Source: Escherichia coli
GTDB taxonomy: Bacteria > Pseudomonadota > Gammaproteobacteria > Enterobacterales > Enterobacteriaceae
NCBI RefSeq assembly: GCF_003790525.1
Contig: NZ_CP033632.1
Strand: one strand, 5' to 3'
DNA length: 64,000 nt
The position numbers were made by a program, and so were the translations under genes. Below, in pieces: positions 1 through 36,261 of this stretch. The first letter of the stretch is position 1. Each line of letters opens with the position of its first letter. The notes under the pieces are model-generated. The model did not search any database. It was not told where the DNA came from and saw only the letters and a list, made by a program, of their open reading frames with translations.

Positions 1-645
1 TGTAAATAATTGTTCAAAACTCATAAACACTCCTTTGTTAAAGGGCAGGAAGCGGTAAACGTCTCTCCCTTAGTTAAGCCATCAATCACTCGATTAGTTT
101 CTGAATGGCAATCAGCGCGTTTGCAATGGCGAGCACAGCCCTGAGAACGATGATTAACAGATTCATCATCCGTTTCTCTAGGTTGATACTGGAGGAAGTC
201 ACCGTAGCTTGCTCATACATCGCCTGTCACAACGGCTCTCTCACATTGTTGGATGTAGAGTACCTTCCCTCTACCAGAGCACTGAACACAGCACCACCCG
301 TTTGTTCAGCCAGGACTTTAATTCGTTCATCCCCAGATAGCGCAGGGGTTAGAAGCAAGGGAGACACACTGTACAGCGCCAACACAAAGATTATACAGAT
401 GCATGCATAAAATTCATTTAAAGAAATTACCATTGACAGACAATCTGAAGTCAAACTAGACAACAGGTGTCTAGTGCCATAATACTATGAGTGTTGGGTG
501 TAGAGTATCTTCCTCCAGTCAGAGCCACCAACTCAAGGCTGGAAAACACAAAAAAGCCAAATTACCAGTCGGTTTTTTTTGTGCTTGTCGTTCAGCTGTA
601 CTTCCGTTTTTTCCCCCCTTCATTGAAGAAGTAGTAGGCAGAGCA

Positions 646-871
646 GGTAATGACTCCAACTTATTGATAGTGTTTTATGTTCAGATAATGCCCGATGACT
701 TTGTCATGCAGCTCCACCGATTTTGAGAACGACAGCGACTTCCGTCCCAGCCGTGCCAGGTGCTGCCTCAGATTCAGGTTATGCCGCTCAATTCGCTGCG
801 TATATCGCTTGCTGATTACGTGCAGCTTTCCCTTCAGGCGGGATTCATACAGCGGCCAGCCATCCGTCATC
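646..871 (-). mobile_element. insB: IS1 fragment (3' end of insB plus terminal IR), truncated by IS26
   Basis: ORF 661..876 translates to the InsB C-terminus (...[46 protein letters not shown]); IS1 terminal sequence ggtaatgactccaac starts at 646. Confidence 0.85.
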
Positions 872-1691
872 GGCACTGTTGCAAATAGTCGGTGGTGATA
901 AACTTATCATCCCCTTTTGCTGATGGAGCTGCACATGAACCCATTCAAAGGCCGGCATTTTCAGCGTGACATCATTCTGTGGGCCGTACGCTGGTACTGC
1001 AAATACGGCATCAGTTACCGTGAGCTGCAGGAGATGCTGGCTGAACGCGGAGTGAATGTCGATCACTCCACGATTTACCGCTGGGTTCAGCGTTATGCGC
1101 CTGAAATGGAAAAACGGCTGCGCTGGTACTGGCGTAACCCTTCCGATCTTTGCCCGTGGCACATGGATGAAACCTACGTGAAGGTCAATGGCCGCTGGGC
1201 GTATCTGTACCGGGCCGTCGACAGCCGGGGCCGCACTGTCGATTTTTATCTCTCCTCCCGTCGTAACAGCAAAGCTGCATACCGGTTTCTGGGTAAAATC
1301 CTCAACAACGTGAAGAAGTGGCAGATCCCACGATTCATCAACACGGATAAAGCGCCCGCCTATGGTCGCGCGCTTGCTCTGCTCAAACGCGAAGGCCGGT
1401 GCCCGTCTGACGTTGAACACCGACAGATTAAGTACCGGAACAACGTGATTGAATGCGATCATGGCAAACTGAAACGGATAATCAACGCCACGCTGGGATT
1501 TAAATCCATGAAGACGGCTTACGCCACCATCAAAGGTATTGAGGTGATGCGTGCACTACGCAAAGGCCAGGCCTCAGCATTTTATTATGGTGATCCCCTG
1601 GGCGAAATGCGCCTGGTAAGCAGAGTTTTTGAAATGTAAGGCCTTTGAATAAGACAAAAGGCTGCCTCATCGCTAACTTTGCAACAGTGCC
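872..1691 (+). mobile_element. IS26: IS26 copy 1 (820 bp, 14-bp terminal IRs ggcactgttgcaaa)
   Basis: Terminal IRs at both ends; contains the Tnp26 ORF. Confidence 0.97.
917..1639 (+). CDS. tnp26: IS26 transposase Tnp26, Asn184 allele (canonical start MNPFKG at 935)
   Basis: ORF translation matches Tnp26; motif RIINATLGF. Confidence 0.95.
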   Translation: MLMELHMNPFKGRHFQRDIILWAVRWYCKYGISYRELQEMLAERGVNVDHSTIYRWVQRYAPEMEKRLRWYWRNPSDLCPWHMDETYVKVNGRWAYLYRAVDSRGRTVDFYLSSRRNSKAAYRFLGKILNNVKKWQIPRFINTDKAPAYGRALALLKREGRCPSDVEHRQIKYRNNVIECDHGKLKRIINATLGFKSMKTAYATIKGIEVMRALRKGQASAFYYGDPLGEMRLVSRVFEM

Positions 1692-1706
1692 AGAAGGTGA
1701 ACACTG

Positions 1707-2291
1707 ATGCCCCGCCCCAAGCTCAAGTCCGATGACGAGGTACTCGAGGCCGCCACCGTAGTGCTGAAGCGTTGCGGTCCCATAGAGTTCACGCTCAGCG
1801 GAGTAGCAAAGGAGGTGGGGCTCTCCCGCGCAGCGTTAATCCAGCGCTTCACCAACCGCGATACGCTGCTGGTGAGGATGATGGAGCGCGGCGTCGAGCA
1901 GGTGCGGCATTACCTGAATGCGATACCGATAGGCGCAGGGCCGCAAGGGCTCTGGGAATTTTTGCAGGTGCTCGTTCGGAGCATGAACACTCGCAACGAC
2001 TTCTCGGTGAACTATCTCATCTCCTGGTACGAGCTCCAGGTGCCGGAGCTACGCACGCTTGCGATCCAGCGGAACCGCGCGGTGGTGGAGGGGATCCGCA
2101 AGCGACTGCCCCCAGGTGCTCCTGCGGCAGCTGAGTTGCTCCTGCACTCGGTCATCGCTGGCGCGACGATGCAGTGGGCCGTCGATCCGGATGGTGAGCT
2201 AGCTGATCATGTGCTGGCTCAGATCGCTGCCATCCTGTGTTTAATGTTTCCCGAACACGACGATTTCCAACTCCTCCAGGCACATGCGTAA
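1707..2291 (+). CDS. mphR(A): TetR-family repressor MphR(A), 194 aa
   Basis: Translation MPRPKLKSDDEVLEAATVVLKRCGPIEF... matches MphR(A) from memory; IS6100 lies downstream as in the usual mph(A) module. Confidence 0.85.
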   Translation: MPRPKLKSDDEVLEAATVVLKRCGPIEFTLSGVAKEVGLSRAALIQRFTNRDTLLVRMMERGVEQVRHYLNAIPIGAGPQGLWEFLQVLVRSMNTRNDFSVNYLISWYELQVPELRTLAIQRNRAVVEGIRKRLPPGAPAAAELLLHSVIAGATMQWAVDPDGELADHVLAQIAAILCLMFPEHDDFQLLQAHA

Positions 2292-2729
2292 ACGGAGGTG
2301 TGCAGAGTCCCTGCGGCAGGCGACGAACACGACCGTCGTCGATTAGTACCGGTACGGTCGGTGGTATCGAAGTCTTGATCACCACTCAGGTCTACGGCTT
2401 ACAAATGGTGACCATCCCGATACTTGCGTCAGAGCACCGGGCCGATTCTTTGACAGTGAATCACTCCCGTAAGGTTGTGCCGGTGTGGGTGTCCCGGGTC
2501 GAGACGATACTCCGCCAATGCGCCCAGCAAACAACCTGGCCATCGCAGGTGGTGGGGAGCGGTGTGGCGGATGAGTTGGACAAGTTGGTGTAGCAGCACG
2601 AGCACGGCGAGATAACATCGCAGGAGTTCGACATGCTCAAGAGACAGCTGATTGCGAATCGCGATGCAGATTCATAACCCGATTGCGGGTTGGCTTCACT
2701 CCACCATCACCGAGCAGACTAGCACGGCG

Positions 2730-3609
2730 GGCTCTGTTGCAAAGATTGGCGGCAGTCAGAGGTAGGCTGTCGCTCTGCGCCGATCAGGCGGCTGCTGCGA
2801 AATGGTGGTTGAGCATGCCCATGGCCTCCGTCAGCGCCGAGGGCCCAATGCCAAAAGCTCTCTCCACAAGGCGCACCTCGCCCCTGATGCCGGGCTGCAG
2901 GCACCAGGGGCGAGCCTGTCCTTTGCGCAGGGCTCGCATGACTTCGAATCCCTTGATCGTGGCATAGGCCGTGGGGATCGATTTGAAACCGCGCACCGGC
3001 TTGATCAGTATCTTGAGCTTTCCGTGATCGGCCTCGATCACGTTATTGAGATACTTCACCTGCCGGTGGGCCGTCTCCCGGTCCAGCTTTCCTTCGCGCT
3101 TCAATTCGGTGATCGCTGCACCATAGCTCGGCGCTTTGTCGGTATTGAGCGTGGCAGGCTTTTCCCAGTGCTTCAGGCCTCGCAGGGCCTTGCCCAGGAA
3201 CCGCTTCGCTGCCTTGGCGCTGCGGGTCGGCGACAGGTAGAAATCGATCGTGTCGCCCCGCTTGTCGACTGCCCGGTACAGGTAGGTCCACTTGCCCCGC
3301 ACCTTGACGTAGGTTTCATCCAGGCGCCAGCTCGGATCAAAGCCACGCCGCCAGAACCAGCGCAGCCGCTTCTCCATCTCCGGGGCGTAGCACTGGACCC
3401 AGCGATAGATCGTCGTATGGTCGACCGAAATGCCGCGTTCCGCCAGCATTTCCTCAAGGTCGCGATAGCTGATCGGATAGCGACAATACCAGCGCACCGC
3501 CCACAGGATCACATCACCCTGGAAATGGCGCCACTTGAAATCCGTCATCGTTCCGTCCGTCCAATCTCCGCCAAGCATGCTCAAGCTTCACGATTTTTGC
3601 AACAGAGCC
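2730..3609 (-). mobile_element. IS6100: IS6100 (880 bp)
   Basis: 14-bp IRs ggctctgttgcaaa at 2730 and, reverse-complemented, at 3596..3609; encodes an IS6-family transposase. Confidence 0.92.
2784..3548 (-). CDS. IS6100 transposase (254 aa from MTDFKWRHFQGD)
   Basis: ORF 2784..3584 translation; IS6-family DDE protein about 60 percent identical to Tnp26. Confidence 0.9.
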   Translation of the reverse strand: MTDFKWRHFQGDVILWAVRWYCRYPISYRDLEEMLAERGISVDHTTIYRWVQCYAPEMEKRLRWFWRRGFDPSWRLDETYVKVRGKWTYLYRAVDKRGDTIDFYLSPTRSAKAAKRFLGKALRGLKHWEKPATLNTDKAPSYGAAITELKREGKLDRETAHRQVKYLNNVIEADHGKLKILIKPVRGFKSIPTAYATIKGFEVMRALRKGQARPWCLQPGIRGEVRLVERAFGIGPSALTEAMGMLNHHFAAAA

Positions 3610-3636
3610 CACACGAGTATTGAGCATAGTCGAGAT
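3610..3636. other. 27-bp fragment of class 1 integron/Tn402 IRt-proximal sequence, between IS6100 and IS26
   Basis: cacacgagtattgagcatagtcgagat is the exact reverse complement of 60699..60725, just inside IRt. Confidence 0.8.
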
Positions 3637-4456
3637 GGCACTGTTGCAAAGTTAGCGATGAGGCAGCCTTTTGTCTTATTCAAAGGCCTTACATTTCAAA
3701 AACTCTGCTTACCAGGCGCATTTCGCCCAGGGGATCACCATAATAAAATGCTGAGGCCTGGCCTTTGCGTAGTGCACGCATCACCTCAATACCTTTGATG
3801 GTGGCGTAAGCCGTCTTCATGGATTTAAATCCCAGCGTGGCGTTGATTATCCGTTTCAGTTTGCCATGATCGCATTCAATCACGTTGTTCCGGTACTTAA
3901 TCTGTCGGTGTTCAACGTCAGACGGGCACCGGCCTTCGCGTTTGAGCAGAGCAAGCGCGCGACCATAGGCGGGCGCTTTATCCGTGTTGATGAATCGTGG
4001 GATCTGCCACTTCTTCACGTTGTTGAGGATTTTACCCAGAAACCGGTATGCAGCTTTGCTGTTACGACGGGAGGAGAGATAAAAATCGACAGTGCGGCCC
4101 CGGCTGTCGACGGCCCGGTACAGATACGCCCAGCGGCCATTGACCTTCACGTAGGTTTCATCCATGTGCCACGGGCAAAGATCGGAAGGGTTACGCCAGT
4201 ACCAGCGCAGCCGTTTTTCCATTTCAGGCGCATAACGCTGAACCCAGCGGTAAATCGTGGAGTGATCGACATTCACTCCGCGTTCAGCCAGCATCTCCTG
4301 CAGCTCACGGTAACTGATGCCGTATTTGCAGTACCAGCGTACGGCCCACAGAATGATGTCACGCTGAAAATGCCGGCCTTTGAATGGGTTCATGTGCAGC
4401 TCCATCAGCAAAAGGGGATGATAAGTTTATCACCACCGACTATTTGCAACAGTGCC
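3637..4456 (-). mobile_element. IS26: IS26 copy 2
   Basis: 820 bp with terminal IRs. Confidence 0.97.
3689..4411 (-). CDS. tnp26: IS26 transposase Tnp26, Asn184 allele
   Basis: ORF translation identical to copy 1. Confidence 0.95.
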   Translation of the reverse strand: MLMELHMNPFKGRHFQRDIILWAVRWYCKYGISYRELQEMLAERGVNVDHSTIYRWVQRYAPEMEKRLRWYWRNPSDLCPWHMDETYVKVNGRWAYLYRAVDSRGRTVDFYLSSRRNSKAAYRFLGKILNNVKKWQIPRFINTDKAPAYGRALALLKREGRCPSDVEHRQIKYRNNVIECDHGKLKRIINATLGFKSMKTAYATIKGIEVMRALRKGQASAFYYGDPLGEMRLVSRVFEM

Positions 4457-36241: not shown

Positions 36242-36261
36242 TACTGTATAAATGAACAGTA
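36242..36261. promoter_or_regulatory. LexA (SOS) box tactgtataaatgaacagta upstream of humD
   Basis: CTGT-N8-ACAG consensus read directly, 20 bp before the humD start. Confidence 0.8.

What the first reader, a model, noticed from the sequence alone, without database searches (positions are those of the whole stretch)
240..545. Two related 32-bp direct repeats flanking a small palindrome and a promoter-like element in unassigned DNA
ggatgtagagtaccttccctctaccagagcac (about 248..279) and gggtgtagagtatcttcctccagtcagagccac (about 506..538) are imperfect direct repeats. Between them lie the palindrome ctagaca-acagg-tgtctag (447..465) and a TAGACA-17-TAATAC promoter-like arrangement. The ORFs called here look non-coding, so this may be a small RNA or regulatory locus next to the IS1 insertion point.
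Basis: seen in the sequence. Interest (0 to 1): 0.25.

Follow-up and report, generated by a model that had tools for sequence, protein, structure and literature searches.

The report
Plasmid DinQ-like toxin–antisense RNA module
The two repeats are the antisense RNA and its target site in a known plasmid toxin–antitoxin "addiction" module (dqlB/agrB), so the locus is ordinary, although this copy looks partly worn out.

Summary
The direct repeat is real: 247-280 against 492-525, 27 of 34 identical, where shuffles reach at most 24. It has a known explanation. Window 1-645 is a plasmid-borne DinQ-like type I toxin-antitoxin module. The toxin gene dqlB lies at 86-169 on the minus strand (NCBIfam NF041473, above its cut-off). 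An AgrB-like antisense RNA lies at about 492-581 on the plus strand (Rfam RF02891, 51.8 bits against a threshold of 40).

Repeat copy 2 is the 5' end of the small RNA. Repeat copy 1, read on the minus strand, is its target in the dqlB 5'UTR, 79 nt upstream of the start codon. The predicted duplex has 26 Watson-Crick pairs, 5 G-U pairs and 2 mismatches (-46.8 kcal/mol; shuffled -14.3). Thirteen homologous modules each carry their own co-varying repeat pair.

The promoter-like element sits correctly for the small RNA. The palindrome overlaps its -35 box and has no statistical support of its own.

The family was described in 2016 and validated on pOXA-48 and pOXA-484 in 2025. More than 100 plasmid records carry this exact sequence, nearly all annotated as dqlB.

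One new detail: this copy has lost the otherwise invariant GGAG ribosome-binding site, its sequestering hairpin and both terminator hairpins. It is probably an attenuated second module of a tandem pair.

The parts
86..169 (-). dqlB toxin CDS, 27 aa: MMNLLIIVLRAVLAIANALIAIQKLIE. It is a C-terminally shortened variant; 10 of the 14 comparison modules encode 31 aa.
   Evidence: NCBIfam NF041473 scores 42 bits against a cut-off of 35. It is annotated as dqlB (WP_272056275.1) in an identical plasmid. It is 63% identical to the validated pOXA-48-type DqlB, E 2e-10. An 8-nt deletion relative to relatives is visible in the alignments.
41..71 (-). Remnant of the dqlB mRNA 3' terminator hairpin. The left arm is mutated.
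   Evidence: Predicted energy is -10.6 kcal/mol with a different fold, against -20.5 to -28.4 kcal/mol for a co-varying perfect hairpin in 12 other modules. Alignments.
176..179 (-). Shine-Dalgarno position. It reads AGAG here and GGAG in 15 of the 16 other modules examined; only L019 shares AGAG.
   Evidence: The SD-sequestering hairpin CUCCAG...CUGGAG scores -6.5 to -12.7 kcal/mol in 13 other modules and is not formed in the window.
188..198 (-). 'Element 3' of the dqlB 5'UTR, CUUCCUCCAGU. It is identical to small RNA positions 509-519, so it mimics the small RNA and can pair with the target region.
   Evidence: Inverted repeat I3, arms 188-198 and 509-519, 11 nt, 100% complementary. Duplex with the target region is -15.1 kcal/mol. 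The model comes from dinQ (PMC5066626).
248..280 (-). Repeat copy 1: the AgrB-binding site in the dqlB 5'UTR, about +104 to +136 of the mRNA and 79 nt upstream of the ATG.
   Evidence: The position, 72-79 nt upstream of the start codon, is conserved in all 14 modules with a measured duplex.
391..396 (-). -10 box TATAAT of the dqlB promoter. The inferred transcription start is about 383-384.
   Evidence: T, A, T, A and the last T are invariant in a 13-module alignment. The same '-10 plus 7' rule reproduces the published dinQ numbering in K-12.
455..475 (.). Palindrome ACTAGACA-acagg-TGTCTAGT in the non-transcribed spacer between the two divergent promoters. Its left arm carries the small RNA -35 box.
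   Evidence: It is present only in the IncX1-type relatives, and two similar 7-5-7 palindromes occur in an IncX5 module. It is not above chance and has no other copy in the window.
457..486 (+). Promoter of the AgrB-like small RNA: TAGACA (457-462), 17 nt, TAATAC (480-485).
   Evidence: The intact relatives have TAATAT in place of TAATAC.
492..581 (+). AgrB-like antitoxin small RNA. It has a single-stranded 5' antisense stretch (repeat copy 2, 493-525), a stem-loop at 514-543 and a weakened terminator at 546-581.
   Evidence: Rfam RF02891 scores 51.8 bits against a gathering score of 40, and it is the only Rfam hit in the 64 kb. Fold. The stem-loop is conserved in 15 small RNAs. The terminator hairpin is -1.9 kcal/mol, against -6.7 to -12.3 kcal/mol in 15 others.
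646..871 (-). IS1 remnant (right end), cut off by IS26, which starts at 872. This is context, not part of the module.
   Evidence: The ORF at 661-876 (minus strand) matches positions 156-199 of 199 of the IS1 transposase profile. The ORF at 917-1639 is an IS6-family transposase, 278 bits.

Best explanation
Window 1-645 is a plasmid-borne DinQ-like type I toxin-antitoxin module, dqlB/agrB. Two divergent promoters lie between the repeats.

The leftward promoter (-10 TATAAT at 396->391, start about 383) makes a dqlB mRNA of roughly 350 nt with a 214-nt 5'UTR. That mRNA encodes a 27-aa hydrophobic membrane peptide (169->86). The rightward promoter (TAGACA-17-TAATAC, start about 492) makes an AgrB-like RNA of about 90 nt.

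The two genes are transcribed in opposite directions from a directly repeated DNA segment. As a result, the small RNA's free 5' end (493-525) is complementary to the mRNA at 280->248.

The rest is inferred from dinQ/agrB and from pOXA-48 dqlB/agrB. Small RNA binding occupies 'element 2' of the UTR. This frees 'element 3' (198->188, a copy of the small RNA sequence) to close a hairpin over the ribosome-binding site, which blocks translation, and the duplex is cut by RNase III. When the plasmid is lost, the antitoxin RNA is no longer resupplied, toxin is made and the cell dies.

A sub-claim holds at about 0.6 confidence: this particular copy is attenuated or decaying. It is the second of two tandem modules. 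It has lost the GGAG ribosome-binding site with its hairpin, four C-terminal codons, the mRNA 3' hairpin and the small RNA terminator stem. It has also gained two extra mismatches in the target.
For: Identity of the parts:
- Rfam AgrB lies above its gathering score.
- NCBIfam DqlB lies above its cut-off.
- Identical plasmids are annotated as dqlB.

Pairing:
- The duplex has 26 Watson-Crick pairs, 5 G-U pairs and 2 mismatches over 33 nt, at -46.8 kcal/mol. Shuffled small RNA gives -14.3 kcal/mol, sd 3.4.
- The 5' 22 nt of the small RNA is unpaired in its own predicted fold.

Comparative evidence:
- Sixteen of 17 modules have their own repeat pair. They come from IncX1/3/4/5, IncI1, IncK, IncN, IncL/M and IncF plasmids and the K-12 chromosome.
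- The target lies 72-79 nt upstream of the ATG in all 14 modules with a measured duplex.
- Cognate duplexes average -53.5 kcal/mol and non-cognate ones -31.9 kcal/mol.
- Of all positions across 13 modules, 92.5% are paired, and 23 of 33 positions show changes on both sides. With permuted partners, 73.9% are paired, and none of 2000 permutations reaches the observed value.
- Differences between small RNA and target favour G-U-compatible transitions 18 to 6.
- The dqlB -10 box is invariant.

Mechanism from the literature:
- dinQ elements 1-4 and the AgrB site G88-A119 (PMC5066626).
- My coordinates reproduce that numbering in K-12.
- For pOXA-48 dqlB/agrB: toxicity, rescue by agrB, compensatory mutations and killing on plasmid loss (PMC12365149).
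- pOXA-484, an IncX3 plasmid (PMC12317039).

Attenuation.
Against: No expression data exist for this copy. The transcription starts are inferred from consensus boxes.

The small RNA promoter scan hit is at chance frequency on its own. The small RNA terminator is very weak, at -1.9 kcal/mol, and the terminator scan found none, so the 3' end at 581 is uncertain.

The specificity of element 3 for its own element 2 is weak: -18.8 kcal/mol cognate against -15.7 kcal/mol non-cognate.

Co-variation of two direct repeats could partly reflect gene conversion rather than selection for pairing.

Against the attenuation sub-claim:
- DinQ itself is 27 aa.
- PGAP does not flag the gene as a pseudogene.
- The exact sequence is spread over more than 100 plasmids.
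- One tandem relative (L020) has the same 3' variant with an intact GGAG.
Confidence: 0.92

Rival explanations
1. The module is a fully functional addiction system as it stands. The AGAG, the 27-aa peptide and the altered 3' ends are tolerated allelic variation, not decay.
For: The toxin still scores above the NCBIfam cut-off. DinQ is also 27 aa. The small RNA-target duplex is still -46.8 kcal/mol. The sequence is identical in 113 plasmid records from four genera. The 3' variant occurs together with an intact GGAG in L020.
Against: The window is the outlier for four separately conserved, co-varying RNA elements. GGAG is otherwise invariant apart from L019. The lesions accumulate stepwise from L003 to L020 to L019 to the window, and only in plasmids that also carry an intact first module. 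The spread of the sequence can be explained by hitch-hiking with the IS1/IS26 resistance region.
Confidence: 0.33
2. Repeat copy 1 is a second small RNA gene of the AgrA type, transcribed rightward like copy 2, rather than a target site in the toxin mRNA.
For: The K-12 chromosome does carry two tandem AgrB-like genes, agrA and agrB.
Against: No AgrB-model match occurs at 247-340 even at E <= 1. No promoter-like or terminator-like site flanks copy 1 on the plus strand. Copy 1 sits at the conserved distance of 72-79 nt from the toxin ATG, exactly like the experimentally mapped dinQ target G88-A119.
Confidence: 0.03
3. The repeats are a neutral scar of duplication or recombination next to IS elements and have no RNA function.
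For: The region borders IS1 and IS26 and lies in a tandemly duplicated arrangement.
Against: The same repeat architecture is found in modules far from any IS, including the chromosome, with compensatory co-variation and a G-U bias. Base-pairing was proven by compensatory mutagenesis in a homologue (PMC12365149).
Confidence: 0.02
4. The palindrome at 455-475 is an operator for a plasmid-encoded dimeric regulator that controls the antitoxin promoter. This adds protein control to the RNA circuit and does not exclude the main explanation.
For: The palindrome has perfect 8-bp arms overlapping the -35 box and lies in non-transcribed DNA between divergent promoters. The arms are kept while the centre differs (T/A) in IncX1 relatives. 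An IncX5 module has two palindromes of the same 7-5-7 geometry.
Against: Palindromes of this kind occur in 21% of shuffles. There is no other copy in the 64 kb. The palindrome is absent from most lineages of the family, whose small RNA promoters use TTGCA-type -35 boxes. The flanking DNA is equally conserved among the IncX1 relatives, so arm conservation carries no information. No candidate regulator was identified.
Confidence: 0.1

Closest known systems
dqlB-agrB of pOXA-48 (IncL), validated as a type I toxin-antitoxin addiction module (PMC12365149)
   Same: Both have a small hydrophobic DqlB toxin; the window peptide is 63% identical and 93% similar. Both have a divergently transcribed small RNA whose 5' end is a direct DNA repeat of a roughly 33-35-nt site in the toxin 5'UTR. 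Both share the invariant 5'UTR blocks, the -10 box and the ACGGATG start context.
   Different: The repeat sequence is entirely different (12-14 of 24 positions would pair across modules). The pOXA-48 small RNA is not detected by the Rfam AgrB model. pOXA-48 has an intact GGAG hairpin and strong terminators, and the window copy does not. Repeat spacing is 188 nt there and 245 nt here.
agrB-dqlB of IncX3 pOXA-484 (PMC12317039)
   Same: The family and architecture are the same. The IncX3 type (L010) is nearly identical to the first module of the tandem pair, which sits directly left of the window start in identical plasmids (L001 3340-3999).
   Different: The window holds the second module, which is of IncX1 type. 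Its recognition sequence is different (cross-duplex -26.7 to -35 kcal/mol against -43 to -47 kcal/mol cognate), and it carries the lesions listed above.
Chromosomal dinQ-agrAB of E. coli K-12 (PMC3567139, PMC5066626)
   Same: Both have a 27-aa single-transmembrane toxin and a long 5'UTR with the antisense site about 75-79 nt upstream of the start. The AgrB-type RNA has a free 5' antisense end, an internal stem-loop and a terminator.
   Different: K-12 has a LexA box over the promoter and two small RNA genes. The window has neither. BLASTP finds no alignment between the toxins. The context is plasmid, not arsR-gor.
Other type I systems with a divergently encoded, non-overlapping small RNA (tisB/istR-1, zorO/orzO, shoB/ohsC) and plasmid hok/sok
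   Same: In all of them a small RNA pairs with a long toxin 5'UTR away from the ribosome-binding site, and translation depends on UTR processing or refolding. hok/sok shares the role in plasmid-loss killing. This comparison rests on my own knowledge and on the reviews listed. The terminator half of related small RNAs gives weak sub-threshold OrzO-P matches.
   Different: There is no sequence or family relationship. hok/sok is an overlapping, cis-encoded antisense pair.

Membership tests
AgrB antisense RNA (Rfam RF02891) | Covariance-model score at or above the curated gathering score | tested here: met
   51.8 bits against 40, covering the full model 1-84, at 494-581 on the plus strand
AgrB antisense RNA (Rfam RF02891) | A 5' stretch of about 33 nt complementary to the 5'UTR of the adjacent dinQ/dql toxin mRNA | tested here: met
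   31 of 33 positions pair (26 Watson-Crick, 5 G-U), -46.8 kcal/mol against -14.3 kcal/mol shuffled. The pairing co-varies across 13 modules.
AgrB antisense RNA (Rfam RF02891) | Internal stem-loop followed by a Rho-independent terminator | tested here: inconclusive
   The stem-loop at 514-543 is present and conserved. The terminator stem is damaged, at -1.9 kcal/mol against -6.7 to -12.3 kcal/mol in 15 relatives. The terminator scan found no site. The run of 8 T's is retained.
AgrB antisense RNA (Rfam RF02891) | The RNA is actually transcribed and neutralises the toxin | not testable with these tools
   No expression data. This has been shown only for homologues (PMC12365149, PMC12317039, PMC3567139).
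DinQ-like type I toxin DqlB (NCBIfam NF041473; dql family, PMC5066626) | Profile score above the curated cut-off; a hydrophobic single-helix peptide of about 27-31 aa | tested here: met
   42 bits against 35. The peptide is MMNLLIIVLRAVLAIANALIAIQKLIE, 63% identical to the validated pOXA-48-type DqlB.
DinQ-like type I toxin DqlB (NCBIfam NF041473; dql family, PMC5066626) | Conserved 5'UTR of about 195-214 nt behind a sigma-70 -10 box, with the antisense site 72-79 nt upstream of the ATG | tested here: met
   TATAAT at 396->391 is invariant in alignment. The UTR is 214 nt. The target lies 79 nt from the ATG.
DinQ-like type I toxin DqlB (NCBIfam NF041473; dql family, PMC5066626) | GGAG Shine-Dalgarno that can be sequestered in a hairpin (elements 3:4) | tested here: not met
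   The window reads AGAG. The hairpin is not predicted in the window, whereas 13 other modules fold it at -6.5 to -12.7 kcal/mol.
DinQ-like type I toxin DqlB (NCBIfam NF041473; dql family, PMC5066626) | Rho-independent terminator after the toxin ORF | tested here: not met
   The left arm is mutated: -10.6 kcal/mol with another fold, against -20.5 to -28.4 kcal/mol in 12 relatives.
DinQ-like type I toxin DqlB (NCBIfam NF041473; dql family, PMC5066626) | The peptide is toxic when expressed | not testable with these tools
   This needs an expression assay.
Chromosomal SOS-regulated dinQ-agrAB locus | LexA box at the toxin promoter | tested here: not met
   No CTGT-N8-ACAG site with up to 1 mismatch in 1-700. 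No CTG-N10-CAG between the toxin and the small RNA, while the K-12 control is found.
Chromosomal SOS-regulated dinQ-agrAB locus | Two small RNA genes (agrA and agrB) in the arsR-gor intergenic region | tested here: not met
   One AgrB hit in the window against two in K-12. The context is plasmid or IS.
Plasmid addiction (post-segregational killing) module | Stable toxin mRNA, unstable antitoxin RNA, and killing on plasmid loss | not testable with these tools
   Shown for the pOXA-48 and pOXA-484 homologues only.

The most novel reading that the evidence does not exclude
In tandem dqlB/agrB arrays of IncX1-type backbones, the second module is losing its toxin arm step by step while keeping a small RNA. 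That small RNA pairs better with the intact toxin mRNAs of other plasmids than with its own: -50 to -57 kcal/mol against IncX1, IncX4, IncX5 and IncF types, compared with -46.8 kcal/mol for its own target. On this reading the copy would act mainly as an antitoxin-only 'anti-addiction' element, protecting the host from killing when a competing plasmid with a related module is displaced.
Probability: 0.1. Interest if true: 0.45.

Novelty: already known. Interest (0 to 1): 0.15.

Why it matters
The finding assigns a function to a stretch that looked like unassigned DNA beside IS1. That stretch is a plasmid-maintenance (addiction) module travelling with a multidrug-resistance region. Such modules help resistance plasmids persist without antibiotic selection, and dqlB/agrB was only validated in 2025.

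The one detail not taken from the literature is the apparent stepwise decay of the second module in tandem arrays. This is of modest interest for how redundant toxin-antitoxin copies erode, and for whether orphaned antitoxin RNAs cross-protect against related plasmids.

A practical note for annotation: the Rfam AgrB model misses the IncL/M and IncN antitoxin RNAs. In those cases the repeat-pair signature is a more sensitive detector.

Tried and rejected
1. SOS control. No LexA box occurs in or near the module. The CTG-N10-CAG motif inside the 5'UTR of relatives was proposed as a weak LexA site in PMC12211044; it reads CCG here and lies inside the transcript, so I rejected it as an operator.

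2. A hok-like long-range 5'-3' pairing of the toxin mRNA. The idea came from inverted repeat I7 (61-71 against 357-367) and from the minimum-energy fold. Duplex energies in 15 modules are within about 1 sd of shuffled controls in nearly all cases, so I rejected it.

3. The whole-mRNA fold is no more stable than shuffles (z = 0.13), and neither is the small RNA fold (z = -0.63). Fold energy alone says nothing here.

4. Specificity of element 3 for its own element 2. The effect is weak (-18.8 against -15.7 kcal/mol), so I do not use it as evidence.

5. The palindrome as a repeated regulatory motif. There is no other copy in the window. The orientation of its TGTCT half-sites is opposite to that of resolvase res sites (my own knowledge), so I did not pursue it.

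6. Long ORFs across the region (105-410 plus strand, 227-463 minus strand, 487-726 plus strand). None matches a family.

7. BLASTP of the window toxin against K-12 DinQ gave no alignment. The relationship rests on the profile model and the UTR homology instead.

8. Copy 1 as an AgrA-like gene. Rejected.

Full report
**Observation.**
- The direct repeat is 247-280 against 492-525, 27 of 34 identical, spacing 245 nt. In 300 dinucleotide-preserving shuffles of 1-645, the best 34-mer repeat averaged 20.4 (sd 0.96, maximum 24). The repeat is therefore real.
- The palindrome ctagaca-acagg-tgtctag lies at 456-474, or 455-475 with 8-bp arms. Perfect palindromes with 7-bp arms occur in 21% of shuffles, and no other copy of the motif exists in the 64 kb.
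- The promoter-like element is TAGACA (457-462), 17 nt, TAATAC (480-485). The scan tool finds one such site where 0.8 is expected.

**What it is.**
- Megablast of 1-660 finds 589 plasmid records. Of these, 112 are at least 99% identical, from Escherichia, Salmonella, Klebsiella and Shigella. Seventeen of the 25 top-listed records annotate 'DinQ-like type I toxin DqlB' under the match; the other eight list no feature there.
- In NZ_CP029182 the gene corresponds to window 86-169 on the minus strand. Its 27-aa product scores 42 bits against NCBIfam NF041473, whose cut-off is 35.
- Rfam places an AgrB antisense RNA at 494-581 on the plus strand, at 51.8 bits against a gathering score of 40. This is the only Rfam family match in the whole window.

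**Meaning of the repeats.**
The small RNA and the toxin mRNA are transcribed in opposite directions. A direct repeat in the DNA therefore makes the two RNAs complementary.
- Copy 2 (493-525) is the 5' end of the small RNA. Its first 22 nt or so are unpaired in the RNA's own predicted fold.
- Copy 1, read on the minus strand (280->248), lies in the dqlB 5'UTR, 79 nt upstream of the ATG.
- The duplex has 26 Watson-Crick pairs, 5 G-U pairs and 2 mismatches, at -46.8 kcal/mol. Shuffled small RNA gives -14.3 kcal/mol, sd 3.4.

**Comparative evidence.**
I fetched 17 modules. They come from IncX1, X3, X4, X5, X6, IncI1, IncI-gamma, IncK, IncN, IncL/M (a pOXA-48 plasmid) and IncF plasmids, plus the K-12 dinQ-agrAB locus.
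- Sixteen modules have their own repeat pair, with repeat spacing of 187-245 nt (430 nt in K-12, where agrA intervenes).
- The target lies 72-79 nt upstream of the toxin ATG in all 14 modules with a measured duplex.
- The recognition sequence differs between lineages but matches within each module. Cognate duplexes average -53.5 kcal/mol and non-cognate ones -31.9 kcal/mol.
- Of all positions across 13 modules, 92.5% are paired, and 23 of 33 positions show changes on both sides. With permuted partners, 73.9% are paired, and none of 2000 permutations reaches the observed value.
- Differences between small RNA and target are G-U-compatible transitions 18 times and incompatible transitions 6 times. 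This argues for selection on pairing rather than mere gene conversion.
- The -10 box of the toxin promoter (TATAAT/TATACT, window 396->391) is invariant across 13 modules.
- Placing the transcription start 7 nt downstream of the -10 box reproduces the published dinQ numbering in K-12, where the AgrB site is G88-A119. The same rule gives a start near 383 in the window and a 5'UTR of 214 nt.

**Mechanism.**
Only predicted sequence complementarity, co-variation and promoter positions are shown here. The rest is inferred from homologues.
- In dinQ, four UTR elements form mutually exclusive pairings. AgrB binds the region holding element 2. Element 3 then closes a hairpin over the Shine-Dalgarno sequence, and RNase III cuts the duplex (PMC5066626).
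- In the window, element 3 (198->188, CUUCCUCCAGU) is an exact copy of small RNA positions 509-519 (inverted repeat I3). This fits the competition model.
- For pOXA-48 dqlB/agrB, published work shows toxicity, rescue by agrB in trans, loss and restoration of repression by compensatory mutations, and killing on plasmid loss (PMC12365149).
- For the IncX3 pOXA-484 module, toxicity, neutralisation and plasmid stabilisation were shown (PMC12317039).
- Unlike chromosomal dinQ, the window has no LexA box and only one small RNA gene.

**State of this copy.**
Against all relatives, the window module is an outlier in four conserved elements.
- The ribosome-binding site reads AGAG instead of GGAG, so the sequestering hairpin is not predicted. 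Thirteen other modules fold it at -6.5 to -12.7 kcal/mol.
- An 8-nt deletion shortens the toxin from 31 to 27 aa and changes its C-terminus.
- The mRNA 3' hairpin is -10.6 kcal/mol, against -20.5 to -28.4 kcal/mol elsewhere.
- The small RNA terminator stem is -1.9 kcal/mol, against -6.7 to -12.3 kcal/mol elsewhere.

In addition, the target has two substitutions not seen in its closest relatives, and the small RNA -10 box reads TAATAC instead of TAATAT.

The closest relatives form a series:

| Locus | Arrangement | State of the window-type module |
|---|---|---|
| L003, L021 | single module | intact |
| L020 | tandem | 3' variant, GGAG kept |
| L019 | tandem | 3' variant, plus AGAG |
| window | tandem | as L019, plus target and small RNA terminator changes |

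In identical plasmids, an intact first module of the validated IncX3 type lies immediately left of the window start. I therefore rate attenuation or decay of a redundant second module at about 0.6. The alternative, a functional variant, is not excluded. DinQ is also 27 aa, and PGAP does not call the gene a pseudogene.

**Palindrome.**
It lies in the non-transcribed spacer between the divergent promoters and carries the small RNA -35 box. It occurs only in the IncX1-type lineage, and an IncX5 module has two palindromes of similar geometry, within a lineage-specific insertion. Nothing distinguishes it statistically, so an operator role remains a low-probability possibility.

**Context.**
IS1 begins at 646 and only its last 226 bp or so remain, because it is cut by IS26 at 872. 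The rest of the window is a mosaic resistance region with phage-like genes.

**Verdict.**
The locus belongs to a family named in 2016 and validated in 2025, and public records already annotate it, so novelty is low.

Noticed in passing
L001 (NZ_CP029182) 3340-3999, directly left of window position 1: A second, intact dqlB/agrB module sits in tandem with the window module. It has a 31-aa toxin, a GGAG hairpin, strong terminators and its own repeat pair (GTCAGTTGTAGAGAGT...). It is of the IncX3 type validated on pOXA-484. The same tandem occurs in two IncX1 plasmids (L019, L020).
   Followed up: yes
window 41-71, 176-179, 546-581; L003, L019, L020, L021: There is a stepwise series from an intact single module (L003, L021) to the window's damaged copy, and the lesions are seen only in tandem arrays. 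This looks like erosion of a redundant toxin-antitoxin copy.
   Followed up: partly
L015 (IncN), L016/L017 (IncL/M, pOXA-48 type), L011 (IncX6): The Rfam AgrB model finds no small RNA in the IncN and IncL/M modules even at E <= 1, although clear cognate repeat pairs exist there. The IncX6 module has neither an Rfam hit nor a convincing repeat within about 860 nt, so its antitoxin, if any, was not located.
   Followed up: partly
window 295-316: A CTG-N10-CAG motif is conserved inside the 5'UTR of many relatives and was proposed elsewhere as a weak LexA site (PMC12211044). It reads CCG in the window. It overlaps a conserved UTR stem-loop, so its conservation is probably due to RNA structure.
   Followed up: partly
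window 646-3584: An IS1 right-end remnant (646-871) is truncated by IS26, which starts at 872 (transposase 917-1639). Next come a TetR-family regulator gene at 1707-2291, which I recognise from memory as mphR(A), and a second, different IS6-family transposase gene at 2784-3584 on the minus strand. No mph(A) or mrx gene lies between IS26 and the regulator.
   Followed up: partly
window 601-645: The 25-45 nt between the small RNA terminator and IS1 (from about 618) do not align with the sequence downstream of the module in IncX1 relatives. There may be another, older junction there.
   Followed up: no
window 872-64000: The rest of the window matches mosaic resistance plasmids. Annotated features include oqxAB, aph(3')-IIa, IS91, mer and tet(A), together with phage-like genes (terminase, integrase, antirepressor) and a DMSO/selenate reductase gene. 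This suggests a phage-plasmid or hybrid backbone.
   Followed up: no
window 36244-36259 and 43545-43560: There are two perfect CTGT-N8-ACAG (LexA-box-like) sites. The overall count of such sites in the window is at chance level.
   Followed up: no
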